Origin: a virus | IMG/VR virus record: IMGVR_UViG_3300045988_130366 | Direction: 5' to 3' (one strand) | Length of the DNA: 64,000 bases | Shown here: positions 5,769 to 55,207 of the stretch, piece by piece | Numbering within the stretch: the stretch's first letter is position 1 | Layout: every line of letters begins with the position of its first letter | Translations under genes and position numbers: made by a program | Notes under the pieces: generated by a model | Database searches by the model: none | Seen by the model: only the letters and a program-made list of their open reading frames with translations | Told to the model about the DNA's origin: nothing

Positions 5769-6017
5769 ATGATTCAAAACTTAATATTTTTTATTTTAGG
5801 AATAATTTTTATTGAATTAATAATTCCTGTAATAGAGGCTCTAACATTAGTAATTGTCACTGCTTTAGAGGTTGCCAAAGGCAAACTAAACATGACAATT
5901 TCTAAATATAATATACAAATTCAAAAGATGGCAGAAGAACTTGAGCCAGAAAATACACACGCCATTGGATTTGTAGTACAAAATAATGAACCAGAGGAAG
6001 AAGAGGAAGACGAATGA
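5769..6017 (+). CDS. small membrane protein with acidic C-terminal tail
   Basis: single TM helix, EPEEEEEDE tail; RBS AAAGGAGG. Confidence 0.4.
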   Translation: MIQNLIFFILGIIFIELIIPVIEALTLVIVTALEVAKGKLNMTISKYNIQIQKMAEELEPENTHAIGFVVQNNEPEEEEEDE

Positions 6018-7300: not shown

Positions 7301-7366
7301 ATTTATAATGGAAACATGTAAAAACCTTTGAAGAAGATATTTTGGAAGAGGAGGTTTATAATAAAT

Positions 7367-12229: not shown

Positions 12230-12407
12230 TCACATATTAGAGCGTTATTTTTAACCTTTATTTGGAAATTTGCTCCGCAATTAATTGAAGATGGATATAT
12301 TTATGCGGCAGTTCCTCCACTTTATAAAGTTACACAGGGAACTAAAATTACTTATCTAAAAGATGATGCGGCTCTTGAGGAATTTAGAAAGACAGCTAAA
12401 AAGTCTT
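12230..12407 (+). CDS. gyrB: DNA gyrase subunit B, exon 2 (SHIRALFLTF…GYIYAAVPPLYKV…TAKKS)
   Basis: Canonical GyrB PPLYK region; ORF 12227-12433 of the six-frame track = this exon plus read-through into intron 2. Confidence 0.75.
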
Positions 12408-38115: not shown

Positions 38116-39511
38116 TATACACGCTTTAGCTTATAGTTTCATTGGTGTTCAAACATTATATATTGCAACAAATTGGAATCCTATTTATTGGGATTGTGCA
38201 TGTTTAATTGTAAACAGTGGTTCACTTGAAGATAATAGTGAGTTAGAGATTGATGAGGATAATGAATCTGAATCTATTTCCGTGAAGAAAACAGCTTCAA
38301 CTGATTATGGAAAAATCGCAAAGGCGATGGGTGAAATTATATCTGCGGGAATTAAAATGAGCCTTGTTGATATAAATAATTCAGATTATGGATTTAAACC
38401 TGATGCTAAAAATAATCAGATTCTTTATGGAATGAAAGGTTTATTGAATGTCAGTGATGCGGTAATTGATGATATTATCAAAAATAGACCTTATATTTCA
38501 CCTAAAGACTTTTTATTAAAAGTGCGTCCAAATAAACAGGCAATGATTTCACTTATTAAAGGTGGAGCATTTGATACAATGATTGACCGCAAGATTTGTA
38601 TGGGTTGGTATATTTGGGAAACTTGTGATAAGAAGAAACGAATTACTTTACAAAACATGGGAGGTTTGATTAAATATAATCTTCTTCCAGAAAAAAATGA
38701 ACAACAGATTATGGCGAGAAGAGTTTATGAATTTAATCGTTATCTAAAATCTGTTTGTAAGATTAAAGGTGATACAACTAATTATCATATAGATGATAGA
38801 GCAATGAATTTTTTGATTGAAATGGAACATGATGATTTATTAGAGGGTTATTCTTTAAATATGAAAGCATGGGACAAAGTATATCAGAAATGGATGGATG
38901 TATTCAGAGAGTGGATTGCGGAAGAAAAAGAACAGATTCTTCAGAACTTAAATGAAAAAATCTTTAAGGATGATTGGGATAAATATGCTCAAGGAACTTT
39001 ATCAGCTTGGGAAATGCAGGCATTATGTTTCTATTACCATGAACATGAATTATCTCATGTTGATACTCAAAGATATGGTTTTGTTGATTTTGATAAGCTG
39101 CCGCAAGAACCTATTGTAGAAAGAACATTTACAAAAGGTGCAAAGCAAATTAATATATTCAAATTGAATAAAATTTGCGGAACTTGTATTGCTAAAAATA
39201 AAACTAAAAGTACAGTAACTATATTGACAACTTCTGGAGTAGTTAATGTTAAATTTAGAAAAGAATATTTCTCATTATTTGATAAGCAGATTTCTGAAAA
39301 ACAAGAAGATGGAACTAAAAAAGTTCGAGAAAAATCTTGGTTCAATCGAGGAAATATGATTATAGTAATGGGCATTAGGTCAGGGGATGATTTCATTTCT
39401 AAGAAATATGCTTCTTCTAATGGACATCAATTATATAAGATTGATAAAATTAATGAAGATGGAAGTTTGGAAATTAGAAGTGATAGATACCAAGGAGAAG
39501 ATGTTTTTTAA
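38116..39511 (+). CDS. dnaE: DNA polymerase III alpha (DnaE-type), exon 2 (C-terminal: HhH, beta-binding region, OB fold)
   Basis: …IHALAYSFIGVQTLYIA… then DINNSDYGFKP / GMKGL (cf. DnaE DINRSD…GLGAIKG). Confidence 0.7.
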
Positions 39512-40520: not shown

Positions 40521-41816
40521 ATGGAGGGATACAATATGTTAGAAGTTCAAAAACGAAATGGTGATATTGTCCCATTTGATAAAGAAAAAATTATTGATGC
40601 AGTAAACAGAGCAATGATTGAAGTAGATAAAATCCTTTATGAGACAGATACTTCAGAAGATATTGCTACTGAAATTGAAGAAATGGCTAAACGCTCTAAG
40701 ACAACTATTTCTGTAGAAACTATTCAAGATTGTGTAGAAGATTTATTAATGCAATCTGAAAGAAGAGATGTTGCAAGAGCGTATATTCGTTATAGATATA
40801 AACAAGAAGCAAAGAGAGAGCATGAGGCAGTTTTTGTTAAAACTTATAGTGAAAAATTGGAAGCCCGCAATGTTCAAAATCAAAATGCTAATGTAGATGA
40901 ACACTCTTTTGGCGGACGTATGGGTGAAGCAAGCTCAGTTATGACAAAGAAATATGCTTTAGATTATATTGTATCTAAAATGTCAAGAGATAATCATTTA
41001 AACAATGAAATTTATATTCACGATTTAGATAGTTATGCTGTTGGAATGCATAATTGTTTGTCATTACCTATAGATGATTTACTTAGAAATGGTTTTAATA
41101 CTCGTCAAACTGATGTTCGTCCTGCTCAATCTGTTAATACAGCTTTTCAGCTTTTGGCAGTATTATTTCAGTTACAATCATTACAGCAGTTTGGAGGAGT
41201 ATCTGCTACTCACTTAGATTGGAGCATGGTTCCTTATGTTCGTAGAAGTTTTTATAAGCATTTCTTAGATGGCATTAAATATTGTCAAAAAGGTCAGATG
41301 CTTGGATTAGCTGGAACTTATGAAGATTTTGATTTATCTAATGCAAAAGAGGCGTGGATTAAAGCTGATGCTTCTATTAATGATGATGTATTTGTTAGAA
41401 ATGAAGCAGCTTATCAATATGCCGTAGATATGACAATAAAAGAAACTTATCAAGCTGTAGAAGGAATGTATCATAATCTTAATACATTACAATCTCGAAG
41501 TGGAAACCAGTTACCTTTTACTTCTATTAACTATGGTACATGTACTTTACCAGAAGGAAGATTAGTAACAGAGGCTTTATTAAATGTATCTATTAAAGGT
41601 ATTGGAAAGCTTCATAAAACTTCTATTTTTCCTTGTGGAATTTTCCAGTGTATGAAAGGAGTCAATCGTGAAGAAGGAGACCCAAATTACGATTTATTTA
41701 AACTCGCATTACGTTCAACCGCCACAAGACTGTACCCAAATTATGCTAATGTCGACTGGTCTGGAAACGCAGGATATGACATCAACGACCCTCGTACCTA
41801 CTTCTCTACAATGGGT
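40521..41816 (+). CDS. nrdD: anaerobic ribonucleoside-triphosphate reductase NrdD, exon 1 (ATP-cone … YFSTMG)
   Basis: ATP-cone VQKRNGDIVPFD, IYIHDLD…HNC, ends at …TMG just before conserved radical-loop Cys (cf. E. coli SPMG|CRSF). Confidence 0.8.
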
Positions 41817-42706
41817 AAGCGAAAACTCAGCCCATTTAAAATCTTTTGAACTGTGCTAACAGGTGTTTATATATTCTAATATATAGGCTAACGGTTAGGT
41901 CTTAATGACTTTGCAGTTTGTTGTTAAGATGAGACCGTGCTAAGATTCATTATAATATTCACACATAGAAGGAGGCTATATGTGGATATATAAAATAACA
42001 AATATTCAAAATAATAAAGTTTATATTGGTCAAACAATACGACCAATAAATCAAAGATTTCATCGGCATTTGAATGATGCTATCAATAATATTTTAGATA
42101 CACACTTTGCCAGAGCAATTAGAAAATATGGTAAAGATAATTTTATCATAGAAGAAATTGATACCGCTCAAACTCAAGATGAATTAAACCAAAAAGAACA
42201 ATATTGGATTAGATTTTATAATTCAGTTGAAGAAGGATATAATGAAACAGATGCAATATCTAAGTGCGGGGGTAATACATATCGTTCTAAAACTGAAGAA
42301 GAGATGGAAATTATCAAAGAAAAAATTCGACAAACAAAAATAGGTACTAAAAACCCTATGGCACGAAAAATTAAACGAACAAACATTATTACTAATGAAG
42401 TAGATATATTTAATACTGTTATTAGTTGTGCTAAAGCTTGTGGAATTAAAAATGGTAAAACATCTATCTCAACAAGATTAAATGGACAAATAAAAAGTCC
42501 TTATAAAAATACTTGGATTTTTGAATATTATAATGAATAAAGTGTATCGACTATCCCTGATGAATGTATGGGAGTAGGGACGGAGATAAGCACCGTCGTT
42601 GTTTTAGGAAACGAAGCAACTGAGAACCGAAGCGGAAGACAACTCTATTTACTTTTAAATAGAATGATAATATAGTCAGTGCTGATGGTGACATCAGATA
42701 AACACG
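41817..42706 (+). mobile_element. group I intron (nrdD intron 1) with GIY-YIG homing endonuclease ORF
   Basis: Core GTGTATCGACTATCC…; 3' end …ATATAGTCAGTGCTGATGG…AACACG omega-G; splicing joins MG|CRTANGYDINGFGQLKDGRGN (cf. MGCRSFLGVWENENGEQIHDGRNN). Confidence 0.75.
41980..42540 (+). CDS. GIY-YIG homing endonuclease (intron-encoded)
   Basis: MWIYKITNIQNNKVYIGQT…RFHRH motif. Confidence 0.8.
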   Translation: MWIYKITNIQNNKVYIGQTIRPINQRFHRHLNDAINNILDTHFARAIRKYGKDNFIIEEIDTAQTQDELNQKEQYWIRFYNSVEEGYNETDAISKCGGNTYRSKTEEEMEIIKEKIRQTKIGTKNPMARKIKRTNIITNEVDIFNTVISCAKACGIKNGKTSISTRLNGQIKSPYKNTWIFEYYNE

Positions 42707-43225
42707 TGCAGAACTGCCAATGGGTACGATATTAACGGTTTCGGTCAGTTAAAAGATGGACGTGGAAATATTTGTCCTGTAACAATTATTTTACCTACAT
42801 TAGCAATGGAAGCTAAACAGAACTTTATGTCTCAATATGCTTTAACTGGCGAAGATGCAAAAGAAGCTTTTGCAGTTGAATATTTCATGACTCTTTTAGA
42901 TGAAAAAATTCATCAGGCAAAAGATATGTTGATTGAACGCTTCGATTGGATTTGTTCTCAGGATGCTTCTGCCGCAGTCTTTATGTATGAGAATGGCACA
43001 ATGAAGGGGTATATTCCAGAGGAAGGAATAAGAAGCGCATTAAAACATGGAACTTTAGCGGTAGGTCAGTTAGGACTCGCTGAGACTCTTCAAATTCTTA
43101 TTGGCACAGACCATACGACTTCAGAAGGAATGAAACTGGCTAAAAGAATTGAACAGTTATTTAAAGATAGATGTGCGGAATTTAAAGAAGAATATAAGCT
43201 TAATTTTGGTGTATATTATACTCCT
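42707..43225 (+). CDS. nrdD: NrdD exon 2 (CRTANGYDING…ILPTLAMEAK…VYYTP)
   Basis: Matches E. coli NrdD DGRNNLGVISLNLPRIALEAK block; ends at …YYTP (cf. LYSTPSENLC). Confidence 0.75.
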
Positions 43226-44198
43226 AAACTTTTCGGATTGGGAGTCGCACAAGTGATTGTGTGAAAAAACAACTCTGTTAAACGGGCAATCGTAATAAGA
43301 TGATAAGAGAGACTAAACCTGTAATAAGGCAAGTTAATCCCGTAGGGTAAATTCATTGGACACAAGTTTTCAGTCGTGTATAATAAAAATTCATATAATA
43401 TAGAAGGAGAGTGAATTTTTTTATGGCACGTAGAAAAATGACAGATAAATTAATTAAAAGAAGTCAAATTAATGAAGAAATACGATTAATTAATGGAAGT
43501 GAAACTGATTATATTTCTTCAAAAGGTAATATTTATAAAGATTATGGAAATGATTTATTTTATCCCAAAGCAAATTTTATAAATAAAAATAATGGATATT
43601 TATATTCCAGTATAACTTATCCAGAAGGACAAAGACAAAGAAGAGTGCATATTTTAGTTGCAGAAGCTTTTTTGCCTAATCCAAATAATTATACAGTAGT
43701 AATGCATAAAGATAATAATAAAGCAAACCCTGAAGTATCTAATCTTGAATGGGGGACTAATTCAAAAAATACTAAAGATGCTTATAAAGATGGTCTTGCT
43801 AAAAATGATAAAAGCTGGGATGATAATCAATCAATTCATATTTGTAGTTTTGATTTACAGGGCAACCTATTAAAGATGTATGGCTCTGTAGGAGAAGCTT
43901 CAAGAGAATTACACGTTACAAAAACAACAATATTAAATCAATGTAATCACAATGTAAAAACAAAACCTCGTTGTGGATATTGGTTTAGATACTTGACTGA
44001 ATACAAAACCAATGGATTTGTTCTCTAACGACTATCGAAAACATAGTTATAAAAGAAATATTTATAATGAAGAAGTGAGTAGAGTAGGATATTATATCCG
44101 AAAGACAGAGCTCTTATTATTTGGTAATAGGATAATAAGATGATAATATAGTCTAATCCCCTTTTTTATGAAATATCGGGAAACCGAGGGTTCGAATG
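43226..44198 (+). mobile_element. group I intron (nrdD intron 2) with HNH-type homing endonuclease ORF
   Basis: 3' end …AATATAGTCTAATCC…GGGTTCGAATG omega-G; joins YYTP|AENLCYK. Confidence 0.7.
43411..44028 (+). CDS. HNH-family homing endonuclease (I-HmuI-like, with AP2-like DNA-binding C-terminus)
   Basis: …VHILVAEAFLPNPNNYTVVMHKDNNKANPEVSNLEWGT… HNH_3-type motif; RBS GAAGGAG. Confidence 0.65.
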   Translation: MNFFMARRKMTDKLIKRSQINEEIRLINGSETDYISSKGNIYKDYGNDLFYPKANFINKNNGYLYSSITYPEGQRQRRVHILVAEAFLPNPNNYTVVMHKDNNKANPEVSNLEWGTNSKNTKDAYKDGLAKNDKSWDDNQSIHICSFDLQGNLLKMYGSVGEASRELHVTKTTILNQCNHNVKTKPRCGYWFRYLTEYKTNGFVL

Positions 44199-44717
44199 GC
44201 CGAAAACCTTTGCTATAAAGCTTTAAAGAATTTTAAAGCAAAATATGGAGTAATTGAAAATGTAAGTGATAAAGAGTTTTTTACTAATTCAATTCATGTT
44301 CCAGTTTGGAAAGAAATGTCTCCATTTGAGAAGATTGATATTGAGTCTCAATTAACCGGTTATTCATCTGCGGGATGTATTACTTATGTTGAATTAGATT
44401 CTGGTATTAAAAACAATCTTGAAGCATTAGAGCAAATTGTAAATTATGCTATGGATAAAGACATTCCATATTTTGCAGTTAATGTACCAAACGATACATG
44501 TCTTGAGTGCGGATACACAGATGAATTTAATGATAGATGTCCTATCTGCGGAAGCACTCATATTCAACAGCTTAGAAGAGTTACTGGATATTTAACAGGA
44601 AATTATAAAACTGCTTTTAACCTTGGTAAGCAAGATGAAGTTGAGCATCGTGTTAAACATGGAGGAAAAAGAGAATGGGCGCAGATAAAACCTGGCACGA
44701 CAAAGAAGAATACTTAA
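44199..44717 (+). CDS. nrdD: NrdD exon 3 (…ENLCYK…Zn ribbon CLECGY…CPICG…glycyl-radical RRVTGYLTG…)
   Basis: C-terminal Zn ribbon and glycyl radical motif RVxGY; spliced total 2334 nt = 777 aa. Confidence 0.8.
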   Translation, partial: AENLCYKALKNFKAKYGVIENVSDKEFFTNSIHVPVWKEMSPFEKIDIESQLTGYSSAGCITYVELDSGIKNNLEALEQIVNYAMDKDIPYFAVNVPNDTCLECGYTDEFNDRCPICGSTHIQQLRRVTGYLTGNYKTAFNLGKQDEVEHRVKHGGKREWAQIKPGTTKKNT

Positions 44718-47529: not shown

Positions 47530-47579
47530 AGAAAGTATTTTCTCTTTTTTTTCATTTCTTAAAAAGGAGAGAGAAAATT

Positions 47580-47954
47580 ATGTACACTTTAATTATAAAT
47601 AATGGCGAATTACAATGCCATATTAAAAGCTTTACAGAGGGCTTAGAATTAAAAGACTTACCAGATAATTCTGGTAAGAAAGAAACTACAGCGGCTTTAT
47701 ATATTACTACTTATATCTCCGCAGAGGATGGTGAAGGAGTAAATACTTTTGATAATATTAGTTTAGTAGATTTTCTTCCATATTTTAAAGTTGAAAATTC
47801 TATCAGCAATATAACTATAAAAGATGGAGAAAAAATAGTTTTTGAATCTACTAAATATACATCTATTTCAAATGCAAAAGGAGATTATGACCAAACCGCT
47901 GAAACTCCAGAATATTATATAGACATTTCTTTTCAGACAAACCCAAGACTTTAA
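47580..47954 (+). CDS. hypothetical protein
   Basis: RBS AAAGGAGAGAG. Confidence 0.45.
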   Translation: MYTLIINNGELQCHIKSFTEGLELKDLPDNSGKKETTAALYITTYISAEDGEGVNTFDNISLVDFLPYFKVENSISNITIKDGEKIVFESTKYTSISNAKGDYDQTAETPEYYIDISFQTNPRL

Positions 47955-47968
47955 AGAGAGGTGATTGA

Positions 47969-49210
47969 ATGGCAAGAATAGAATATACAGGTAAGCCAAT
48001 TCAAGCCTCTACTATTAATGATTATTATAGAAGATTAGATGCTATTAGAACTTGGAATGGTAGATATTCTGCTATTTCTAATCGAGGAAGCGTTGGCGCT
48101 GGTGTTAAAATCACCAGCGCGCAAGTTATGAATGAAATTTTTAAAAGTGTTGTAGATACAAAAAATACTGTTTCATTTGTAAATGGCGTTTCAATTTTAG
48201 TTCCTATTGGAGTTACTCAAGGTAGTTCCGCAATTGGAAAAAAATCTATGGCTCAAATTGAAAAAAGTATTGGAATGATGGAACAAGCTTGTCGAGAGCA
48301 TTTTTCAAGTAAACGTAATGGTTTTAATAGTTCCAATTATGGTATTTTCGGAAGTTTTAGTTCTAATAGGTCTGGATTTAATGGTACTAATAGAACTTCT
48401 AATAATACAAGCTTCAATGTAATTGATAATAATTCTAATAGAAGCGGATATTTTAATGGTCATAGAAATGGTTACTGTGGTGGTAACAGAAGTAGTAATA
48501 ATGCTACTAATAGAAGTGGTTATAATAATGCTTTTAGAAACGGATATCATCATACTTTTAATAGTGGATTTTTTAGTACTAAATGGGCATCTAATGATGG
48601 TTCAAATTTTAGTGCTTTTGGAGATAATAGTGCTAAGTTTTCAAAAGTTCATAATGGTAATAAAAGTGGATTTGCAACTGGAAAATACCATCATCATTAT
48701 TCTTATTGGGTATTTAATTGGGCTGGAAATGGAAATAAAGACGTTCAATTAACAGGTAATGCTATTAAAAGAGGTAATTTTGATGGACATAATGCTTCTA
48801 AATTTTCTGGAAATGGAACAAATAGCACTAATAGAACTACTGTGAATCATGCTAATAGAAGTCCTTTTCATAAAGGTGGTTATACTGCAAATAATGATAC
48901 TAAATATACAGGGCATACAATAAGTTGTTCTGGAAATAATGGTAGTCATTTTTCCAGAGTAGGTACTTCATGCGTAGGAGATAACGCTTCCAATTATTCT
49001 GGAAACGCTACTGGATATTCAAGCTTTTTTACTTCTAATTGTCCTGTTAATCATGCTACGAATGATGCCAGTGTAAATACTTGTCCAAGTAATTTCTCTG
49101 GAGTATTTAGTGGTAATTATAATGTTGTTTGTCCAAGTAATTTTAGTAATGTTGATAGAAAATGCTTTACAGTTCATAGTAGTTATACTGTAGAAGGTGT
49201 TGATTTTTAG
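47969..49210 (+). CDS. Asn/Ser/Gly-rich repetitive protein with C-terminal Cys repeats (CPxNxS modules); candidate substrate of downstream radical-SAM enzymes
   Basis: ~110-aa ordinary N-domain then ~300 aa low-complexity (N 20%+, dozens of N-x-S/T sequons; repeats NRSGFNG / NRSGYFNG / NRSGYNNA; C-terminal CPVNHATN…CPSNFSGV…CPSNFSNV). Confidence 0.55.
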   Translation: MARIEYTGKPIQASTINDYYRRLDAIRTWNGRYSAISNRGSVGAGVKITSAQVMNEIFKSVVDTKNTVSFVNGVSILVPIGVTQGSSAIGKKSMAQIEKSIGMMEQACREHFSSKRNGFNSSNYGIFGSFSSNRSGFNGTNRTSNNTSFNVIDNNSNRSGYFNGHRNGYCGGNRSSNNATNRSGYNNAFRNGYHHTFNSGFFSTKWASNDGSNFSAFGDNSAKFSKVHNGNKSGFATGKYHHHYSYWVFNWAGNGNKDVQLTGNAIKRGNFDGHNASKFSGNGTNSTNRTTVNHANRSPFHKGGYTANNDTKYTGHTISCSGNNGSHFSRVGTSCVGDNASNYSGNATGYSSFFTSNCPVNHATNDASVNTCPSNFSGVFSGNYNVVCPSNFSNVDRKCFTVHSSYTVEGVDF

Positions 49211-49236
49211 ATATATTTAAAGAGTAAAAGGAGTCA

Positions 49237-50664
49237 TTGATGATAGAGAATAATGATAAAATTTATTTTACAAATATAACATTATTTACTACAGCTTTAT
49301 GTAATCTTAATTGCGGATATTGTTATATTTGTAAAGATGCTACTGGATGTTTAAAACAAATAGATGATGACCTTGCGAAAGATTTTGAAGAAGGAAATCA
49401 AATTAAACAGGTATATGATGTAGATCCAGAAGCAGATAAACATATTAATCATATTACTTTATGGGGAGGAGAGCCTTTCCTTCATCTGGAACGTTTTATA
49501 GACCATTTTGAAGAATACTTAAATGCTTTTCCAAACTTTACTGAAATAGATACTTCAACAAATTTTACTCTTCCAAATCAAATTGAATCTTTAAAGAAAA
49601 TGTTTGATGCAATTATTAAACATTATCATGGTAATAAAAAATTTCATTTTGATCTTCAGGTCTCAATTGATGGGCCTGAAGAGATGAATGATTTTGGAAG
49701 AGGTAAAGGAGTTACTCAAAAATTCTTAAAGAATTTTAGAGATTTATGTGAATTAGAATTTGACGATTCTAAAATTGATTTATTTGTTCATACTAAACCA
49801 ACTTTTTCAAAACCTACATTCCATTTTGTAGATACACCAGAGAAAGCATATGAATGGTTTGAATTTTTTGATAAAGAAATGTATCAGTATTATAAAAATA
49901 GAAAAACTAAAAAATGGTTTTTCTTGCCATGTCTTTTTAATTATGCAACTCCAGCAGAATGGACAAAAGAAGATGGACTTGAAGTGGCAAAAATCTATCG
50001 TTCAATTCAAGAAGTAACACCAAAAATAAAACAATTGGATGGATGGATTCCAAACTATGAAACATATATTCCAGGTGTAGAATTTTTATTAGGTAGATTA
50101 AAAGATGATAATTCTTTTAATAAAAAAAAGTGTTTAGATTGTTCTAAACCATTCTGCGGCGGAGGGTGTGGTTCATTTTCTCATGTAGTAGTTCCTATTC
50201 ATGATGGTAAATATACTATGTGTCATAGAGGTATGTTTGATGATTATGTTGATTATCATAACAATATGAAAGACCATGCTGATATGAATGGACTTGCCGC
50301 AAAATATGTTCAAACAAATAATGAATCTGCTTGGATTTATGATAAAGACCAATTCTTAAATCTTAAAAAGACTTTTGATAATCTTATTTTATATCCTCAT
50401 CAAATTTTCTATACAGATTATGTTAAGTTTGTATATGAATATGCAAAAGCAGGTATCATTGATGAAAAATGGACTGATATGAGTAAGATTGATAAAACGG
50501 TAGCTATTTTCGTTGATAAATCATGTTGTTTACAAGATTCATATATTATTACTGGCTCTTGGATAACATCAAATCCGTTAGAAATTCCATTGTGGTATAA
50601 TGGAGCTATGGATGTAGTTGAAGAAGAAATTGACAGAATAATGGCGGAAAGAGGTATAGTATGA
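49237..50664 (+). CDS. radical SAM enzyme with C-terminal SPASM-like domain (anSME/peptide-maturase-like)
   Basis: CNLNCGYC (Cx3Cx2C), GGEP, C-terminal CLDCSKPFCGGGC (Cx2Cx4Cx3C). Confidence 0.75.
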   Translation: MMIENNDKIYFTNITLFTTALCNLNCGYCYICKDATGCLKQIDDDLAKDFEEGNQIKQVYDVDPEADKHINHITLWGGEPFLHLERFIDHFEEYLNAFPNFTEIDTSTNFTLPNQIESLKKMFDAIIKHYHGNKKFHFDLQVSIDGPEEMNDFGRGKGVTQKFLKNFRDLCELEFDDSKIDLFVHTKPTFSKPTFHFVDTPEKAYEWFEFFDKEMYQYYKNRKTKKWFFLPCLFNYATPAEWTKEDGLEVAKIYRSIQEVTPKIKQLDGWIPNYETYIPGVEFLLGRLKDDNSFNKKKCLDCSKPFCGGGCGSFSHVVVPIHDGKYTMCHRGMFDDYVDYHNNMKDHADMNGLAAKYVQTNNESAWIYDKDQFLNLKKTFDNLILYPHQIFYTDYVKFVYEYAKAGIIDEKWTDMSKIDKTVAIFVDKSCCLQDSYIITGSWITSNPLEIPLWYNGAMDVVEEEIDRIMAERGIV

Positions 50665-52055
50665 CATTTCAAGAGCAGCAAGATTTACTTTTAGAAAATT
50701 ATTTATTTAGATATGATAAAGATGAAGCTTCTGTTGAATTTATCATCACATCTATATGCAATCAAAAATGTGAGTATTGTTATTTATATAGATATGGTAA
50801 CGAGATGTATCCTCCAGAAGCTAATAAAAAAGAAAACATTCTTAGAAATTTAGCATTGTTATTAGATTGGTTAGATGAGAATGGATATAAATATACAACC
50901 TTTGATATTTTTTCAGGAGAATTTTTTCAGATTCCTTATTGGGAAGAAATTTTGAGTGTTTTTTATGAGCATCAAATAAACACTCCTAATATTCCATCAA
51001 GAGATTTTGTTATTCCTACAAATATGTCTTTTCTCATGGACGAAGAGAAAACTGCAAGAGTTGAATATTGGATAAATAGGGTTAGAAATGATACAAAACA
51101 TTTTAATGGCTTTTGGTTGAGCGCTTCGGTAGATGGACCAACAGAATTAGAATCTGTTGAAAGAGGATTGAGAAACGGTCAAACGAAACAAGATTTATTC
51201 TATGATAAATTTTTTAAGTTTATTGCGAAGTATTCTTTTTCTTGCCATCCTATGATTACAAAAGAATTCGTTAAAGATTATAAACGTAATTATGATTGGT
51301 GGATTGATAATCTTATTAAATATAATGCTACCTTTAAAAAAGAAAATGGATATGAAGTATGCTCAATTCCAATGATGTTAGAGGTTAGAAATGCAGAACA
51401 ATGGGATAAAGAGTCTTTACAGAATTATAGAGATTTTCTTTTCTATGTAGCAGAAAAAGATTTGAATACACTTCATAAAGGAGATTTAACTGATTTTGCA
51501 TATCATATGGCAGATAACTTCTCTGATGGAATGATGAATATTGGAACATATAATCATGTACAGCCATATATATTAGCCCTTCCAGAAGTACAACATAGAA
51601 TGCCATGTTCAATTCAAGGCGGTACAATTTTCAGAGTTGGAGATTTAGCAGTCGTACCTTGTCACAGAACTTGCTATCCAGATAAAGTTTATGGATTCCT
51701 TGAATTAAATGAAGATAAAACTAAAATTGTGGGCGTTTATGGAGAAAATCCTATGCTGGCATATAAGATTAAAACCATTAATCAGAATCGTTCTTTTATG
51801 AAATGTGCGGGCTGTCCTATTAAAAGCTTTTGTATGAAAGGCTGCTTAGGAGCACAATATGAAGATAGAAAAGAATTATTTTGTGCTATTGATGAAGTGT
51901 GTGAAATGTTTAAAACTAAGTATCGTACTGTTAATGATATAGCTGAAAAATATGGCATTTATGATATTATTTTAAATGATTTAAAAATCTCAAAAGAGAG
52001 AAGGGAGTTCATAAAATATGCAAGAGATATTATCAACAGATGCTTGTATGACTGA
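50661..52055 (+). CDS. radical SAM enzyme with SPASM domain, paralog of upstream gene
   Basis: CNQKCEYC, C-terminal CAGCPIKSFCMKGC (Cx2Cx5Cx3C canonical SPASM); ATGA overlap with upstream. Confidence 0.75.
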   Translation: MTFQEQQDLLLENYLFRYDKDEASVEFIITSICNQKCEYCYLYRYGNEMYPPEANKKENILRNLALLLDWLDENGYKYTTFDIFSGEFFQIPYWEEILSVFYEHQINTPNIPSRDFVIPTNMSFLMDEEKTARVEYWINRVRNDTKHFNGFWLSASVDGPTELESVERGLRNGQTKQDLFYDKFFKFIAKYSFSCHPMITKEFVKDYKRNYDWWIDNLIKYNATFKKENGYEVCSIPMMLEVRNAEQWDKESLQNYRDFLFYVAEKDLNTLHKGDLTDFAYHMADNFSDGMMNIGTYNHVQPYILALPEVQHRMPCSIQGGTIFRVGDLAVVPCHRTCYPDKVYGFLELNEDKTKIVGVYGENPMLAYKIKTINQNRSFMKCAGCPIKSFCMKGCLGAQYEDRKELFCAIDEVCEMFKTKYRTVNDIAEKYGIYDIILNDLKISKERREFIKYARDIINRCLYD

Positions 52056-52701
52056 TGAGAATGTAGAAGTTTCTATTTTTGATTTAACTCAAGACATTAT
52101 GTTTAAAAAGCAATTTGCATTAATAGATGAATTAGATTTTAGACTTGGCAAAGTTAATGATGAAGATGACGTACTTGAATCAGCCAGGTTAAAAATTTAT
52201 TATATTTATTATTTTATGCTTGATGATAAAGAAAAAGAGTATTTCACTCATATAAAGAATTTTATTATTGCATCTAATAATAAGTTAATTAAACGAATTA
52301 AAAATAGCACTGTTGAAGGCTTCCTTGATGAAGATACAAATACCATTGAAGAAGTTCATTTAAACAAACTGTTTTTAGTTCTTTTGAAAGAATACGCTCC
52401 AGAGTTAAGATATACAGATTATAAAGATGATGTTTTATCTAATATAAATCAATATATTTATCTTTTAAATGAAACTTATTTTGATGATTTTAGTTTGTTT
52501 CAAGATAATGTATTATATGGAATTTGTATTGGAAAATCTATAGTTGATTATAAAAAGTTCTTGAGTCCTGCAGAATGGGATAGATTTCAATATAGTTTTT
52601 ATCATTTGTTTTATAGTATTCAAGAATTTCCAACAGACGATGAAATATTAGATATTGAAAAAGATATTGAAAATAAAGTAGACCTTCTTTATGTAAAATA
52701 A
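52048..52701 (+). CDS. hypothetical acidic protein (operon member)
   Basis: ORF overlapping rSAM stop; start uncertain (52018 or 52048). Confidence 0.4.
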   Translation: MTDENVEVSIFDLTQDIMFKKQFALIDELDFRLGKVNDEDDVLESARLKIYYIYYFMLDDKEKEYFTHIKNFIIASNNKLIKRIKNSTVEGFLDEDTNTIEEVHLNKLFLVLLKEYAPELRYTDYKDDVLSNINQYIYLLNETYFDDFSLFQDNVLYGICIGKSIVDYKKFLSPAEWDRFQYSFYHLFYSIQEFPTDDEILDIEKDIENKVDLLYVK

Positions 52702-52732
52702 TAAGAAGTAAAGAGTAAAAGGAGTATAGTAA

Positions 52733-53524
52733 ATGATTTTTATATTGCCATCTATTTATTATAATTTTGAAGATAATATAAATATTTTAAATATGTATAG
52801 CAATACAGTGAAAATCAAAGGCATTGAGGGTAACTTCCCGTCTAACATTATGTGCGGCGGGATTAACGCCCTTGACACCAGATATTTTGCGCTGTATGAT
52901 GATATTATAGGTTGTGTAAATAGTTATCCAATAACATCTAAAATGTTATTTGTTGATTGCGGCAACCTCTTTCTTAATGAAAAAGAATATCTAAATCGTT
53001 TTGATAAGATATTATTTGAAGAATGGGAAAATAATAATTCTACATATTATGAAATTGCTGATTTTAATTTGATTGATTATGTAGTAAAACGTTATCCTAA
53101 TATTCAAATTGCGTTACATCAAAATGCTTTATTAAAATATAGCTTAAAAGAGATTCAAGATAAAATTGATAGTTGTAAAAATATCAAATACATAATTTTA
53201 CCAAGATGTTATGCTCATTTAAAAATAAAAGGTACTCAAAAAATTTATTTAATGAGTTTTACAAAATGTAAAGATTGTGTAAATTACTGCGATTGTTTAT
53301 TTGAAGAGTCTCATAATATATTGGAATATAGTGGTAATTCTGTCTTTAGAAAATGTACTCAAAGGTTTTATAAAGATGATGATGAGTTCTTTGAAGAATA
53401 TAGAAATATTCCAAAAGATTTCTCATATGTTTTATTTGATAATATTATTCCAGAAGAGACAAATGAATGCTATACATTAATGATTAATTTATTTGAGAGA
53501 GGGCTTAAAAATGATTTATTATAA
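52733..53524 (+). CDS. hypothetical protein (operon member)
   Basis: RBS AAAGGAG. Confidence 0.45.
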   Translation: MIFILPSIYYNFEDNINILNMYSNTVKIKGIEGNFPSNIMCGGINALDTRYFALYDDIIGCVNSYPITSKMLFVDCGNLFLNEKEYLNRFDKILFEEWENNNSTYYEIADFNLIDYVVKRYPNIQIALHQNALLKYSLKEIQDKIDSCKNIKYIILPRCYAHLKIKGTQKIYLMSFTKCKDCVNYCDCLFEESHNILEYSGNSVFRKCTQRFYKDDDEFFEEYRNIPKDFSYVLFDNIIPEETNECYTLMINLFERGLKNDLL

Positions 53525-54509
53525 TTTACCTGGATTTTATGAACACTTTACTTTAAATAAGTTTATTTTAGAATTACATGACACAAATCCTGAATATTTC
53601 AGAGATGGAATTAAGATTGCAACTTTCTTTGGTAATTTCCCATTCTGCACTTGGGATGGCGGCAGAAACTTTCCATTTTATCGTCAAATCACAAAAGAGG
53701 AAATTGAAAAGATTAGAGATTTTTATAAATTCTACAATATTCCTATGAGATTAATTTTTACCAATTCTGCAATCGAAGAAGAAGATTTATATGATCCATT
53801 TTGTAATCTTCAAATGAGGCTGCTTGAAGATGGTAATAATGAAGTTGTTGTAAATTCTCCTCTTTTGGAGCAATATTTAAGAGAGACTTATCCAGATTTT
53901 AAATATATTAGTTCTACAACTAAATGTTTAAATAAGGAAAAATTTCTTAAAGAGCTTCAAAATCCAGATTATTATCAAGTTTGTTTAGATTATAATTTGA
54001 ATAAAAATATGGATATGCTTGAAAACATTCCTCAAGAGTTACGAAGTAAATGTGAATTTTTATCAAATGCGATTTGTCATAGTCATTGCCCTGTTAGAAA
54101 ATCACATTATCTTGACACCAGTAAAACTAATTTAACATATGGCAGACATAAATACAGTATTACCGCAAGATGTCAAATTAAAGGTGGTATTAATGACCCT
54201 GATACTCTTGGAAAACAAAACAATTTGACTTGGGAAAATATTCAAGAATATAATTCAATGGGATATAAATACTTTAAATTTGAAGGAAGAACATTGCCAA
54301 GTGCAGATATTTTTGCTAATTATTTATATTATTTATTTAAACCTGAATATATCCCAACTATTGTAAGTCAATCTTCATATGTACCAGGAATATTTTTTAA
54401 TAATCCAAATTCTCAGTTTTATTTAGAGATGGTAAAAAGAACCGATGCTTCATTAGAAGCTGATAATGGCGTATATGCAAATGAATGTGTAATGAGTTGG
54501 CCATTCTAA
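53493..54509 (+). CDS. hypothetical protein (operon member, weakly similar to upstream gene)
   Basis: ORF overlapping upstream by 32 nt. Confidence 0.45.
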   Translation: MREGLKMIYYNLPGFYEHFTLNKFILELHDTNPEYFRDGIKIATFFGNFPFCTWDGGRNFPFYRQITKEEIEKIRDFYKFYNIPMRLIFTNSAIEEEDLYDPFCNLQMRLLEDGNNEVVVNSPLLEQYLRETYPDFKYISSTTKCLNKEKFLKELQNPDYYQVCLDYNLNKNMDMLENIPQELRSKCEFLSNAICHSHCPVRKSHYLDTSKTNLTYGRHKYSITARCQIKGGINDPDTLGKQNNLTWENIQEYNSMGYKYFKFEGRTLPSADIFANYLYYLFKPEYIPTIVSQSSYVPGIFFNNPNSQFYLEMVKRTDASLEADNGVYANECVMSWPF

Positions 54510-54578
54510 TAGAATTAGCCCTTCTTGTTTTTTAAAATCTGTAGAGAGAAAGTTTAAAAATAAGGAGGGCTTTTAACT

Positions 54579-55163
54579 ATGCTGGAAACAATTGGATCAA
54601 TTGTCTTAAAGTATTGGGTTGAACTTATTTTAGGTTTGATTGTAACTGGCGGCGGTTTTTTAATAAAACGTTATTTAAGACTTGAAAAAGAAGAACGTCA
54701 AAGAGAGCAAAAAGAATATTTTGATAATGTGCTTAAAAAAATTCAAAGTGAAAATCAACAGGTATTAAAATCTTTAGAAGAAGAACATGATAAGATGAAT
54801 CAAAATTCTGAAGATAAGTATGATGAAATTAATACCAAGGTTGATCAAGCTTTAGAAGCAGGTCGTGAAGAATCTAAATCTGATGATGCGGTTCTTGAAA
54901 AAGAAATTTCAGCATTGGAAAAAAATATTACAGCTTTGACCGCAGGCGTTTTATCAATACAAGGAAAAGAGTTTAGAAATAATTGTAGAAAACTTTTAGC
55001 TGAAGATCATGTTATTACTCTTGATGAATGGGAAGAATTAGATAAAGACCATATGGCTTATAATGGGTTAGGTGGTAATCATAAAGGTGACCATTTATTT
55101 TCATTAGTAAAAAAGAAAGTCGAAGCCGGCTTTGCAGAAGACCAACGTCCAAAAGAAGAATAA
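54579..55163 (+). CDS. membrane-anchored coiled-coil protein
   Basis: N-terminal TM helix, E/K-rich coiled coil; RBS AAGGAGGG. Confidence 0.45.
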   Translation: MLETIGSIVLKYWVELILGLIVTGGGFLIKRYLRLEKEERQREQKEYFDNVLKKIQSENQQVLKSLEEEHDKMNQNSEDKYDEINTKVDQALEAGREESKSDDAVLEKEISALEKNITALTAGVLSIQGKEFRNNCRKLLAEDHVITLDEWEELDKDHMAYNGLGGNHKGDHLFSLVKKKVEAGFAEDQRPKEE

Positions 55164-55207
55164 AAAAGAGGGGATAGAATTAAATTCTATCCCCTATTAT
55201 TTTTTAT
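55164..55207. terminator. bidirectional rho-independent terminator between convergent transcription units
   Basis: GGGGATAGAAT-TTA-ATTCTATCCCC hairpin flanked by A6 and T7. Confidence 0.8.

What the first reader, a model, noticed from the sequence alone, without database searches (positions are those of the whole stretch)
47969..49210. Protein saturated with N-x-S/T sequons and NRSG(F/Y)N repeats
Beyond residue ~110 the protein is extremely rich in Asn, Ser and Gly. It contains dozens of N-x-S/T tripeptides, for example NSS, NGT, NRT, NNT, NAT, NRS, NGS, NAS and NST. It has recurrent NRSGFNG / NRSGYFNG / NRSGYNNA units and ends in three spaced CP-x-N modules.

This composition is unlike ordinary phage structural proteins. 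It suggests either a heavily post-translationally modified (glycosylated or cross-linked) product or a repetitive precursor.
Basis: seen in the sequence. Interest (0 to 1): 0.6.

Follow-up and report, generated by a model that had tools for sequence, protein, structure and literature searches.

The report
Phage repeat protein with radical-SAM maturases
This Asn/Ser/Gly-rich phage protein is most likely the substrate of a conserved operon of iron-sulfur enzymes (two radical-SAM, two U32-type) found only in uncultured gut phages, making it an apparently undescribed type of heavily modified viral protein, not a glycoprotein.

Summary
ORF 47969..49210 encodes 413 aa. After residue 110 it is 45% Asn+Ser+Gly, with 25 N-x-S/T sites (12 expected), three NRSG units and three CPxN modules.

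It is a real gene. Nineteen homologues are exactly 413 aa, without indels, and dN/dS is about 0.3.

In every locus with usable context the gene sits in one co-directional block:
- a ~120-aa protein
- this protein
- a radical-SAM/twitch enzyme
- a radical-SAM/SPASM enzyme
- an acidic ~225-aa protein
- two paralogous U32-fold proteins

Distant versions keep the ~105-aa N-terminal domain, which ends at an invariant Cys. Their cores are swapped for other repeats: TFHS, SHRSSY, NGTNS, NANYSNN. In one locus the gene in that position is a CxxxC-repeat protein instead. Some clusters add YcaO or a glycosyltransferase.

I therefore read the protein as a giant leader-plus-core precursor matured by the adjacent Fe-S enzymes. 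The sequon excess is part of an N-x-S-x-aromatic and [N/H]-R-[S/T] repeat grammar. No glycosyltransferase was found in the operon or in 20 other large ORFs.

The closest known analogue is the HXS antiphage system: two radical-SAM enzymes, a small protein, and an effector modified on SHRSS. Family membership tests fail. The chemistry and the benefit to the phage remain unknown.

The parts
47580..47954 (+). Small acidic protein (124 aa, pI 4.4) directly upstream of the repeat protein. Its role is unknown; it may be an accessory or chaperone protein, positionally analogous to HxsD.
   Evidence: A protein of about 105-125 aa occupies this position in L001-L018, L003, L019 (two copies), L020, L022 (two copies) and L032. 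It has no Pfam, PHROG, NCBIfam or PADLOC hit.
47969..49210 (+). The 413-aa Asn/Ser/Gly/aromatic-rich protein, taken here as the inferred substrate (precursor) of the operon.
   Evidence: Nineteen of the 22 homologues found by word-indexed search are exactly 413 aa, and the 19 aligned ones have no indels. dN/dS is 0.14-0.36. The family has only 40 clusters among 1.84 billion representative proteins.
47969..48292 (+). N-terminal domain, residues 1-108. It is predicted helical, has ordinary composition, and ends at the invariant E-x-x-C (E105, C108). I read it as a leader-like recognition domain.
   Evidence: It is 91% identical in the close clade, against 78% for the core. R22, E98, E105 and C108 are invariant across the whole family. 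hhalign to the N-terminal domains of distant substrates gives probability 98.2%, E 3.5e-14, ending at the same Cys.
48317..48580 (+). Eleven degenerate 8-residue repeats, [N/H/F]-R-[S/N/T]-G-[F/Y]-x-x-x, at residues 117-204.
   Evidence: Autocorrelation at lag 8 gives z 4.4 and at lag 24 gives z 4.7. Tandem Repeats Finder reports a 24-nt period at 48511-48569. The [HN]R[ST] motif occurs 7 times against 0.7 expected.
49040..49141 (+). Three CPxN modules, starting at residues 358, 372 and 388.
   Evidence: C358/P359/N361 and C372/P373 are at least 90% conserved among the aligned homologues. The third module is not conserved.
49163..49207 (+). Conserved C-terminal motif C-F-x-V-H-S-S-Y-T-V-E-G-V-D-F.
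   Evidence: V402, S405, Y406, T407, V408, E409 and G410 are invariant in alignment A2. [F/Y]-x-V-E-G-[I/V/L]-D-F recurs in distant family members.
49237..50664 (+). R1: radical-SAM enzyme with a twitch-like auxiliary-cluster region. The true start is probably the ATG at 49240.
   Evidence: PF04055 scores 33 bits, above its gathering score of 29.5. The best NCBIfam hits are peptide maturases, all far below their cut-offs. Invariant Cys are C21/C25/C28 plus C310, C328 and C430.
50661..52055 (+). R2: radical-SAM enzyme with a full seven-Cys SPASM-type C-terminal region. It overlaps R1 by 4 nt.
   Evidence: C33/C37/C40 are invariant, as are C316, C334, C382, C385, C391, C395 and C414. It gives weak hits to the QhpD and StsB SPASM regions and to TIGR04085. 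It is adjacent to R1 in every locus examined.
52018..52701 (+). P4: acidic 227-aa protein (pI 4.4) of unknown function.
   Evidence: It occupies the same position in L001-L018 and L003. No significant family hit was found.
52733..53524 (+). P5: 263-aa paralogue of P6 (U32-like), with an invariant C-x2-C-x5-C.
   Evidence: hhalign of A4 against A3 gives probability 97.9%, E 3.3e-13. C179, C182 and C188 are invariant. It pairs with P6 in L017, L018, L028, L032, L033 and L035.
53511..54509 (+). P6: 332-aa U32-fold TIM-barrel protein with four invariant Cys. The mechanical ORF starts at the TTG at 53493.
54579..55163 (+). P8: 194-aa protein at the end of the co-directional block. Its link to the module is loose.
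   Evidence: It is conserved at 90-97% in the close clade. In L017 its homologue lies upstream of the module. Only weak coiled-coil-type hits were found.
55169..55195 (.). Bidirectional intrinsic terminator that closes the + strand block.
   Evidence: It has a 12-bp stem with T-runs on both strands. No terminator-like site lies between 47700 and 55160 on the + strand.

Best explanation
The 413-aa protein is the dedicated substrate of a phage-borne post-translational maturation operon. In effect it is a giant RiPP-like precursor protein.

**Proposed mechanism**
- Residues 1-108 form a conserved helical domain that ends at an invariant Cys. This domain is the handle by which the modifying machinery recognises the protein.
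- The basic core, rich in Asn, Ser, Gly and aromatic residues (residues ~110-400), carries the modification sites. It includes the 8-residue [N/H/F]-R-[S/N/T]-G-[F/Y] repeats and the Cys-containing C-terminal part.
- Two radical-SAM enzymes are encoded immediately downstream. One has a twitch-type auxiliary cluster and the other a full SPASM domain. They would abstract hydrogen atoms and install covalent changes, either cross-links or small-mass modifications, at repeated motifs.
- The paralogous pair of U32-fold proteins, each with invariant Cys, would add a further step. That step is either O2-independent hydroxylation, as in UbiU/UbiV, or proteolytic processing.

The N-x-S/T excess reflects this repeat grammar (N-x-S-x-F/Y and [N/H]-R-[S/T]) and not glycosylation sequons.

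**Shown**
- The gene is real and under purifying selection.
- The operon architecture is conserved.
- The enzymes belong to the families named above.
- The substrates share the N-terminal domain while their cores are hypervariable.

**Inferred**
- The enzymes act on this protein.
- Which residues are modified, and what chemistry is used.
- What the mature product does for the phage. Candidates are an HXS-like block of incoming DNA (superinfection exclusion), or a role at the cell envelope or on the virion.
For: **1. Synteny.** The order small protein, repeat protein, R1, R2, P4, P5, P6 is found in all of these:
- the window;
- 14 close loci;
- L017, where R1 is 51% identical but the repeat protein only 28%;
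- L018;
- the amber-recoded L003/L004;
- L044.

Genes overlap or abut, and only one terminator closes the block.

**2. Leader-plus-core pattern.** R1/R2 pairs at 25-36% identity are still preceded by a protein with the homologous N-terminal domain. hhalign gives probability 98.2%, E 3.5e-14, ending at the same Cys. The cores are entirely different:
- SHRSSY repeats in L019;
- NANYSNN in L022;
- NGTNS pentads in L024 and L036;
- NSSFNSSNYGY in L032.

In L021 the upstream protein is instead a 21%-Cys CxxxC-repeat protein, a repeat type that NCBIfam names as a radical-SAM target. Its hit to TIGR04117 is weak (28.8 bits against a cut-off of 50), and it was not part of the N-terminal-domain comparison.

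**3. Variant clusters carry classic RiPP tailoring enzymes.** YcaO appears in L023 and L031 (E 1e-29), and a radical-SAM+GT2 fusion appears in L032.

**4. Enzyme families.**
- The best NCBIfam hits of R1 and R2 are almost all peptide or protein maturases: GggB, PapB, YhhB, AmcB, DynA, QhpD, HxsB/C and the CXXX-repeat maturase.
- R2 keeps the seven-Cys SPASM pattern.
- R1 keeps three extra invariant Cys.

**5. Evolutionary rates.** The repeat protein evolves 4-6 times faster than its enzymes but is still constrained. dN/dS is about 0.3, against 0.02-0.09 for the enzymes. It is 80% identical where R1 is 94.5%. There are no indels across the 19 aligned 413-aa homologues.

**6. Motifs.**
- [HN]R[ST] occurs 53 times against 11 expected over 35 substrates, and 7 times against 0.7 in the window.
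- SHRSS is the experimentally modified motif of HxsA (PMC13128918).
- Most cores are basic while all the enzymes are acidic.
Against: - There is no experimental evidence, and no modification has been observed.
- No RRE/PqqD-like recognition domain was detected in R1, R2 or the accessory proteins.
- All radical-SAM hits to characterised maturase families are far below the curated cut-offs, so chemistry cannot be transferred.
- AlphaFold2 gave no usable model of the substrate (pLDDT 26.7). A folded, unmodified structural role therefore cannot be excluded on structural grounds.
- A core of about 300 residues is far larger than any known RiPP core.
- Adjacency, however well conserved, is not proof of an enzyme-substrate relation.
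- The [HN]R[ST] motif is absent from several family members and from the most distant substrates. It cannot be the universal modification site.
Confidence: 0.7

Rival explanations
1. The protein is an N-glycoprotein. The N-x-S/T tripeptides are true sequons that are glycosylated, by a cytoplasmic N-glycosyltransferase or by a host enzyme, and this is the main modification.
For: - The window protein has 25 sequons against 12.1 +/- 2.8 expected.
- The excess recurs across the family (mean z 2.3) and in distant substrates built of NGT, NGS and NSS units.
- L032 has a radical-SAM+GT2 fusion next to its substrate.
- L020 has GT8, GT2 and GT2 genes 3-5 kb from its radical-SAM pair.
Against: - No glycosyltransferase family was hit in the seven operon proteins or in 20 other large ORFs of the window.
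- P6 has a U32 fold and P5 is its paralogue.
- Only 12 of the 25 sequons are well conserved among close homologues.
- The strongest enriched patterns are NxxxF, SxN, SxF and RS, so N-x-S belongs to a longer unit.
- Several family members show no sequon excess: P0118, P0127 and P0137.
Confidence: 0.08
2. The protein is an ordinary, unmodified structural or adhesive phage protein, such as a fibre, decoration or low-complexity spacer. The neighbouring radical-SAM and U32 genes act on something else, such as a nucleotide, cofactor or host target.
For: - Two family members (P0127, P0137) are fused behind a Laminin_G_3 lectin-type domain typical of phage fibres (E 9.8e-24).
- In L024 and L036 the module lies among genes that I judged, by eye only, to look tail-fibre-like.
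- In the window it faces a convergent tail-fibre and holin block.
- It evolves fast, as receptor-binding proteins do.
Against: - The tight adjacency survives very deep divergence and swaps of the core. One locus has a Cys-rich CxxxC-repeat protein in this position.
- The radical-SAM enzymes resemble peptide or protein maturases rather than nucleotide or cofactor enzymes.
- In the window the gene is transcribed with the replication block, not with the late genes on the opposite strand.
- A structural role and radical-SAM maturation are not mutually exclusive.
Confidence: 0.12
3. The protein is a multi-core polyprecursor. The 8-residue units are excised, perhaps by the U32 'peptidase' pair, to give many copies of a small modified peptide.
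For: - A period-8 repeat spans residues 117-204.
- U32 proteins were historically annotated as collagenase-type peptidases, and one homologue carries that name in JGI.
- Lineage-specific tandem units occur in other substrates.
Against: - The repeats cover only about 90 of the ~300 core residues, and the rest is non-periodic.
- The units are degenerate and lack conserved flanking cleavage motifs.
- The whole 413-aa length is indel-free, and a conserved C-terminal motif and a central HHHYSYWVFNW block are kept. This argues for a single product.
- No transporter or C39-type peptidase is present in the operon.
Confidence: 0.07

Closest known systems
HXS antiphage system (HxsD-HxsB-HxsC-HxsA; PMC13128918, Nat Commun 2026)
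   Same: - It has two adjacent radical-SAM enzymes, a small accessory protein and a repeat-bearing protein effector.
- The effector is matured in a radical-SAM-dependent way.
- The modified motif there is SHRSS. Here [N/H]-R-[S/T] is strongly over-represented (SNRSGF, SNRSGY, GNRSSN and others), and a distant relative (L019) carries literal SHRSS units.
- The repeat region is basic in both.
- R1 and R2 give weak hits to HxsC and HxsB.
   Different: - The HxsB, HxsC, HxsA and HxsD models are not matched at their cut-offs (18-20 bits against 268-370; no hit for HxsA or HxsD).
- HXS is chromosomal, and 99.7% of its occurrences are in Pseudomonadota. This module is phage-borne in low-GC gut phages.
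- No signal peptide or peptidoglycan-binding domain was detected here by inspection or family search, although no dedicated predictor was run.
- This substrate is twice as long, with a core of about 300 residues.
- The gene order differs.
- A U32-like pair and an acidic 227-aa protein are added.
Radical-SAM/SPASM RiPP systems with repeat precursors (CXXX-repeat system TIGR04115/04117, GrrM/OscB Gly-rich-repeat and other three-residue cyclophane 'triceptide' systems, PapB/SCIFF ranthipeptides, streptosactin GggB)
   Same: - The precursor is encoded next to a SPASM/twitch radical-SAM maturase.
- The N-terminal part is conserved and the repeat core is hypervariable.
- The core is rich in aromatic-x-x, Cys and Asn positions, which such enzymes cross-link.
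- These families are the best NCBIfam hits of R1.
- One distant locus (L021) has a CxxxC-repeat protein in the substrate position.
   Different: - All hits are far below their cut-offs.
- The leader-like domain is about 105 residues and the core about 300, against tens of residues in known RiPPs.
- No RRE was detected.
- Two maturases of different auxiliary-cluster type are always paired.
- The module is phage-encoded.
Radical-SAM/SPASM enzymes that act on whole proteins: QhpD on QhpC, and anaerobic sulfatase-maturing enzymes
   Same: A SPASM radical-SAM enzyme modifies a full-length protein rather than a short peptide. R2's SPASM region gives its best hit to QhpD, and R1 gives weak hits to anSME.
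   Different: - There is no sulfatase or amine dehydrogenase context.
- Scores are far below cut-offs.
- The substrate here is a low-complexity repeat protein with many potential sites.
U32 family Fe-S proteins UbiU-UbiV, RlhA, TrhP (PMC6747719, PMC10990095)
   Same: - P6 has the U32 fold, and its homologues hit PF01136.
- P5 and P6 are adjacent paralogues, as ubiU and ubiV are.
- Each has invariant Cys that include a C-x3-C or C-x2-C-x5-C element, as expected for a 4Fe-4S site.
   Different: - The Cys spacing in P6 (C-x30-C-x3-C-x27-C) is not the published CX6CX15CX3/4C or UbiV CXnCX12CX3C pattern.
- The window's own P6 does not reach the Pfam threshold.
- Known substrates are quinone precursors and RNA, not proteins.
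- I found no U32 pair described in a peptide- or protein-maturation cluster in the papers I searched.
Long-leader RiPP precursors (nitrile-hydratase-like NHLP/proteusin and Nif11 leaders; from my own knowledge)
   Same: A large, conserved, folded N-terminal leader of about 80-100 residues precedes a variable core, with radical-SAM tailoring.
   Different: The N-terminal domain has no sequence match to the NHLP or Nif11 models (no NCBIfam or Pfam hit). The core is an order of magnitude longer.

Membership tests
HXS system (HxsA/B/C/D) | Two adjacent radical-SAM genes next to a repeat-bearing effector and a small accessory protein | tested here: met
   R1 and R2 are adjacent in all loci. The repeat protein and a protein of about 120 aa lie directly upstream.
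HXS system (HxsA/B/C/D) | The radical-SAM proteins match the HxsB (TIGR03978) and HxsC (TIGR03977) equivalog models at their cut-offs | tested here: not met
   R2 against HxsB scores 18.2 bits (cut-off 370). R1 against HxsC scores 19.9 bits (cut-off 267.9).
HXS system (HxsA/B/C/D) | The effector has His-Xaa-Ser repeats, a cleaved N-terminal signal and a peptidoglycan-binding domain; HxsD has the LYW and LLNDYxLRE motifs | tested here: not met
   The target and the 124-aa protein give no NCBIfam or Pfam hit. The repeats are N-R-S, with H-R-N or H-R-S in some units or homologues, rather than H-x-S. No signal-peptide-like N-terminus is visible by inspection; no predictor was run. The distant L019 substrate does carry SHRS five times.
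HXS system (HxsA/B/C/D) | Radical-SAM-dependent N-terminal processing and covalent modification of the repeat motif; block of phage DNA entry | not testable with these tools
   This needs expression, mass spectrometry and infection assays.
Radical-SAM/SPASM peptide-maturase (RiPP-type) cluster | Radical-SAM core with a CX3CX2C motif | tested here: met
   R1 has C21-x3-C25-x2-C28 and scores 33 bits on PF04055, above the 29.5 gathering score. R2 has C33-x3-C37-x2-C40 but scores 23.2 bits, below the gathering score. Both motifs are invariant.
Radical-SAM/SPASM peptide-maturase (RiPP-type) cluster | C-terminal SPASM (seven Cys) or twitch auxiliary-cluster domain | tested here: inconclusive
   R2 has invariant C316, C334, C382-x2-C385-x5-C391-x3-C395 and C414, which fits the SPASM pattern. 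However, TIGR04085 scores only 16.8 bits against a cut-off of 27. R1 has three extra invariant Cys (C310, C328, C430) and a weak hit to the twitch model, 43 bits against 170.
Radical-SAM/SPASM peptide-maturase (RiPP-type) cluster | An adjacent precursor with a conserved leader and a variable core | tested here: met
   The N-terminal domain is homologous across substrates (hhalign 98.2%). The cores are unrelated between lineages.
Radical-SAM/SPASM peptide-maturase (RiPP-type) cluster | An RRE (PqqD-like) recognition element in a maturase or as a stand-alone protein | tested here: not met
   No PqqD or RRE family was hit in R1, R2, the 124-aa protein or P4. The radical-SAM motifs start at residues 21 and 33, which leaves no room for an N-terminal RRE. 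Structure-based detection was not possible.
Any named maturase equivalog (GggB, PapB, YhhB, XyeB, GrrM, FxsB, DynA, QhpD, anSME, CXXX-repeat maturase) | The score reaches the curated NCBIfam cut-off | tested here: not met
   The best hit is GggB at 58.9 bits against a cut-off of 650. All other hits score 45 bits or less against cut-offs of 170-650. The same holds for distant homologues.
Peptidase U32 family (for P6 and P5) | U32 TIM-barrel fold or a PF01136 match | tested here: met
Peptidase U32 family (for P6 and P5) | The four-Cys 4Fe-4S motif of the Fe-S U32 proteins (CX6CX15CX3/4C, or the UbiV type CXnCX12CX3C) | tested here: inconclusive
   P6 has four invariant Cys, but they are spaced C-x30-C-x3-C-x27-C. 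P5 has an invariant C-x2-C-x5-C. The published motifs come from PMC6747719. Spatial clustering in the model could not be inspected.
Bacterial N-glycoprotein | N-x-S/T sequons in excess, together with a cognate oligosaccharyltransferase or N-glycosyltransferase | tested here: not met
   The sequon excess is present. No glycosyltransferase or OST family was found in the operon or in 20 other large ORFs of the window. P4, the 124-aa protein and P8 were not tested by structure.
Collagen-like or classical fibre protein | G-x-y triplet repeats or a recognised fibre domain | tested here: not met
   There is no period-3 signal (the lag-3 z is 0.8). No Pfam or PHROG fibre family was hit.

The most novel reading that the evidence does not exclude
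Large gut phages of Firmicutes encode a previously undescribed class of 'RiPP-like proteins'.
- Each has a ~105-aa recognition domain followed by a hypervariable repeat core of up to 300 residues.
- The core is modified at many sites by a fixed pair of radical-SAM enzymes.
- In many lineages a UbiU/UbiV-like pair of U32 Fe-S proteins also takes part. If these hydroxylate or process the protein, it would be the first protein substrate for that enzyme class.
- The mature basic product would act as a phage weapon analogous to the bacterial HXS effector, for example by blocking DNA entry of competing phages. Alternatively it could be a cross-linked adhesive component of the envelope or virion.
Probability: 0.3. 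Interest if true: 0.85.

Novelty: new variant of a known kind. Interest (0 to 1): 0.68.

Why it matters
If the inference holds, it extends radical-SAM 'RiPP' logic from short peptides to a protein core of about 300 residues. It also places that logic in phage genomes.

It links U32-family Fe-S proteins to protein maturation. Their only established activities are O2-independent hydroxylation of quinone precursors and RNA.

It offers a phage-side counterpart to the recently described HXS defence system, which uses a radical-SAM-matured repeat effector.

The system is compact, at seven genes and about 7.5 kb. It is conserved across many uncultured gut phages, some of them amber-recoded. It is directly testable by anaerobic co-expression and mass spectrometry. 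The lineage-specific cores offer a natural library for learning the substrate rules of the enzymes.

Tried and rejected
**Searches that found nothing**
- AlphaFold2 of the target with its 21-sequence alignment gave pLDDT 26.7, with only N-terminal helices. No fold search was therefore possible.
- Sequence and profile searches of the PDB for the target, R1, R2 and P6 found nothing.
- Pfam, PHROGs, NCBIfam and PADLOC gave no hit for the target.
- GenBank phages had no DNA match to 47000-55000 and no tblastn match for the target or R2. P6 matched only three unannotated faecal 'Bacteriophage sp.' records.
- IMG/VR scans for distant subfamilies (P0127, P0107, A7, A8) found nothing, so the context of the LamG fusions is unknown.
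- Four literature searches for phage radical-SAM, RiPP or YcaO clusters found no description of this module. The library is not exhaustive.

R2 was used instead.
- The afdb50 fold library was unavailable.

**Ideas considered and rejected**
- Glycosyltransferase in the operon: rejected, see the rival explanations.
- Collagen-like protein: rejected, because there is no triplet period.
- Artefactual ORF in low-complexity DNA: rejected on dN/dS of about 0.3, the strong Shine-Dalgarno sequence and the length-exact homologues.
- PADLOC viperin hits of R1 and R2 cover only the radical-SAM core. I disregarded them.
Full report
**Observation**

ORF 47969..49210 (+) encodes 413 aa and has a strong Shine-Dalgarno sequence. 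Residues 1-110 have ordinary composition. Residues 111-413 are 17.8% Asn, 15.2% Ser, 12.2% Gly and 19.5% aromatic (F, Y, H, W), with almost no Leu, Glu or Gln.

There are 25 N-x-S/T tripeptides, all in the second part. Shuffles of that part give 12.1 +/- 2.8, and none of 2000 reached 25.

The NRSG units belong to eleven degenerate octads, [N/H/F]-R-[S/N/T]-G-[F/Y]-x-x-x, at residues 117-204. Autocorrelation z is 4.4 at lag 8 and 4.7 at lag 24. A 24-nt period is visible at the DNA level. The remainder of the core is not periodic. The description is therefore accurate, and the excess is not a chance effect of composition.

**It is a real, constrained gene**

- A word-indexed search of 5.8 billion proteins found 22 relatives. 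Nineteen are exactly 413 aa at 67-96% identity, and the 19 aligned ones have no indels.
- An exhaustive profile search of 1.84 billion cluster representatives found only 40 clusters.
- Pairwise dN/dS against 13 close loci is 0.14-0.36. The neighbouring enzymes give 0.02-0.09.
- In the core, Trp, Phe and Gly are the best conserved residues, followed by Val, Arg and Tyr. Asn, Ser and Thr are more variable, and only 12 of the 25 sequons are well conserved.

Across the wider family the architecture is constant:
- an N-terminal domain of about 105-125 residues, with the motifs DFYxRLNxLR and TKNAxSFL, ending at IExxIGxLExxC with C108 invariant;
- a hypervariable core rich in N, S, T, G, aromatic residues and sometimes Cys, with lineage-specific repeats;
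- a C-terminal [F/Y]-x-V-E-G-[I/V/L]-D-F motif.

AlphaFold2 gave no usable model (pLDDT 26.7).

**Context**

The window is a low-GC (about 31%) phage genome fragment. It carries DNA polymerase III alpha, gyrase, ligase, DnaB, RecJ, NrdD/NrdG, dUTPase and RuvC on the + strand. A convergent holin and tail-fibre block lies on the - strand.

Relatives in IMG/VR are contigs of 118-196 kb. The polymerase is only about 44% identical to those of Enterococcus phages and about 40% to SPbeta. No GenBank phage carries the target or R2.

The target lies in a tight co-directional block with overlapping or abutting genes. One bidirectional terminator at 55169-55195 closes it. The block contains:
- a 124-aa protein;
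- the target;
- R1, a radical-SAM enzyme;
- R2, a radical-SAM enzyme;
- P4, an acidic 227-aa protein;
- P5, 263 aa;
- P6, 332 aa;
- P8, 194 aa.

**The enzymes**

- *R1.* It reaches the Pfam Radical_SAM threshold. Its invariant Cys are C21/C25/C28 plus three further ones, which fits a twitch-type auxiliary cluster.
- *R2.* It has the CX3CX2C motif and seven further invariant Cys in the SPASM arrangement.
- *Family hits.* The best NCBIfam hits of both are almost all peptide or protein maturases: GggB, PapB, YhhB, AmcB, DynA, QhpD, HxsB/C and the CXXX-repeat maturase. All lie far below the curated cut-offs.
- *P5.* It is a paralogue of P6 (hhalign probability 97.9%) with an invariant C-x2-C-x5-C.

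This adjacent paralogous pair recalls UbiU-UbiV. Those are U32 proteins that each bind a 4Fe-4S cluster and carry out O2-independent hydroxylation with prephenate as oxygen donor (PMC6747719, PMC10990095). The Cys spacing here differs from theirs. None of the proteins examined is a glycosyltransferase.

**Comparative evidence for a substrate-enzyme relationship**

The same gene order is found in:
- 14 close loci;
- L017, where R1 is 51%, R2 60% and P6 55% identical but the target only 28%;
- L018;
- the amber-recoded L003/L004;
- L044.

R1/R2 pairs at only 25-36% identity were examined in further phage contigs and in MAGs or isolates of Oscillospiraceae, Lachnospiraceae, Roseburia, Faecalibacterium and Clostridiales Family XIII. 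Most are still preceded by a small protein and a repeat protein.

The N-terminal domains of those proteins are homologous to that of the target family. hhalign gives probability 98.2%, E 3.5e-14, ending at the same boundary Cys. Their cores, however, are unrelated:
- TFHS or TVHS with many Cys;
- NRSTYTAxxNGSNFS;
- SHRSSY;
- NANYSNN;
- NGTNS pentads;
- NSSFNSSNYGY.

In L021 the gene in that position is a 21%-Cys CxxxC-repeat protein instead. It hits the NCBIfam CXXX radical-SAM-target model only weakly and was not included in the N-terminal-domain comparison.

Some variant clusters add a YcaO cyclodehydratase (E 1e-29) or a radical-SAM+GT2 fusion. The U32-like pair follows R1-R2 in several of them.

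A conserved recognition domain, a fast-evolving core, and a fixed set of tailoring enzymes with optional extras is the signature of RiPP-type maturation, here at protein scale.

**What the sequons are**

Pooled over 27 family cores, the most enriched gapped pairs are NxxxF (z 11.4), SxN, SxxxS, SxF, NxS, RS and FxS. N-x-S is therefore one face of an N-x-S-x-F/Y unit.

The tripeptide [H/N]-R-[S/T] occurs 53 times against 11 expected over 35 substrates, and 7 times against 0.7 in the window protein.

Most cores are basic (pI 8.3-10.3), while every enzyme and accessory protein is acidic.

**Closest known system**

The HXS antiphage system (PMC13128918) consists of:
[quoted passage not shown] - the effector HxsA.

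HxsA carries basic His-Xaa-Ser repeats that are required for defence. It undergoes radical-SAM-dependent N-terminal processing and a +8 Da modification on the motif SHRSS. The mature effector blocks phage DNA entry.

The architecture and the motif resemble what is seen here. The L019 substrate even carries SHRSS. Membership fails, however:
- the HxsB and HxsC models score 18-20 bits against cut-offs of 268-370;
- there is no HxsA or HxsD match;
- I saw no signal peptide and no family search found a peptidoglycan-binding domain;
- the taxonomy and gene order differ.

**Interpretation**

With confidence of about 0.7, I conclude that the 413-aa protein is the precursor or substrate of the adjacent Fe-S enzyme set.

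The chemistry cannot be read from sequence. Candidates are:
- modification of [N/H]-R-S units, as in HxsA;
- aromatic-to-C-beta cyclophane links;
- Cys thioethers, given that C320 and C335 are invariant;
- hydroxylation or proteolysis by the U32 pair.

The benefit to the phage is also unknown. Co-transcription with the replication block and the HXS parallel suggest an intracellular or envelope role such as superinfection exclusion. The Laminin_G_3 fusions and what I judged by eye to be tail-fibre neighbourhoods in L024 and L036 suggest a virion or adhesive role.

Glycosylation as the main modification is unlikely but not excluded. An unmodified structural protein and a multi-core polyprecursor are the other rivals.

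**Novelty**

I found no description of this module in the searchable literature or in the curated family libraries. I rate it a new variant of a known kind, namely radical-SAM-matured repeat substrates. Three features are unusual: its phage origin, a core of about 300 residues, and the associated U32-like pair.

Noticed in passing
window 9631..13323, 20135..21127, 34357..39511, 40521..44717: The replication module is full of homing endonucleases. GIY-YIG ORFs lie at 11349..12059, 12580..13323, 20135..21127 and 37070..37960, and an HNH-like ORF at 43411..44028. Host-type genes appear split around them: DNA polymerase III alpha into 34357..36894 and 38282..39511, NrdD into 40521..41849 and 44196..44717, and GyrB ends at 11172 just before two GIY-YIG genes.
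   Followed up: partly
L003, L004, L019, L020 (and probably L044): Relatives of the module come from phages with in-frame TAG codons in every gene. In L003, for example, the R2 homologue has 10 and the target homologue has 4. This indicates amber-recoded genomes (TAG read as an amino acid, Gln in the database translation). The module is therefore shared between standard-code and recoded phage lineages.
   Followed up: partly
window 55169..55195: A perfect 12-bp-stem hairpin has T-runs on both strands. It sits exactly where the + strand block (ending at 55163) meets the - strand block (starting at 55187), so it is a bidirectional terminator.
   Followed up: no
L021 5968..12925 (277-kb contig): A 243-aa protein is 21% Cys, arranged as CxxxC repeats. 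It sits among four radical-SAM genes and an aldo-keto-reductase/ferredoxin fusion, with a 62-aa 'LWID' protein between it and the first maturase. This is a Cys-repeat version of the same module in a probable jumbo phage.
   Followed up: partly
L023 77..1552; L031 3430..4776; L032 2889..4958; L020 2103..4598: Variant clusters carry extra tailoring genes next to the substrate. L023 and L031 have YcaO (PF02624, E 1e-29). L032 has a radical-SAM+GT2 fusion. L020 has three glycosyltransferases (GT8, GT2, GT2) beside a P6 homologue.
   Followed up: partly
P0127 (668 aa), P0137 (373 aa): Two family members have the N-terminal domain and repeat core fused behind a Laminin_G_3 (concanavalin-like lectin) domain (E 9.8e-24). 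Their cores use SWSVNC-type repeats. Their genomic context could not be retrieved.
   Followed up: partly
window 2352..3854, 6014..7261, 7328..9073: Other notable phage genes are an SPFH/flotillin-like protein, a PIN+PhoH fusion, and a 581-aa tail-lysozyme/endolysin-like/SH3 protein.
   Followed up: no
window 48305..48553 (-), 48423..48752 (+), 48749..48949 (-), 49019..49177 (-): Several 50-110-aa ORFs overlap the target in other frames and are rich in Ile, Thr and Ser. They are by-products of the biased codon content of the repeat gene, not genes.
   Followed up: no
window 47969..49210 compared with 50661..52055 in the close loci: Synonymous divergence of the repeat gene (dS about 0.32-0.38) is lower than that of R2 and P6 in the same genome pairs (dS about 0.5-0.6), although its dN is about three times higher. 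Possible causes are codon or sequence constraint in the repeat DNA, or recombination.
   Followed up: no
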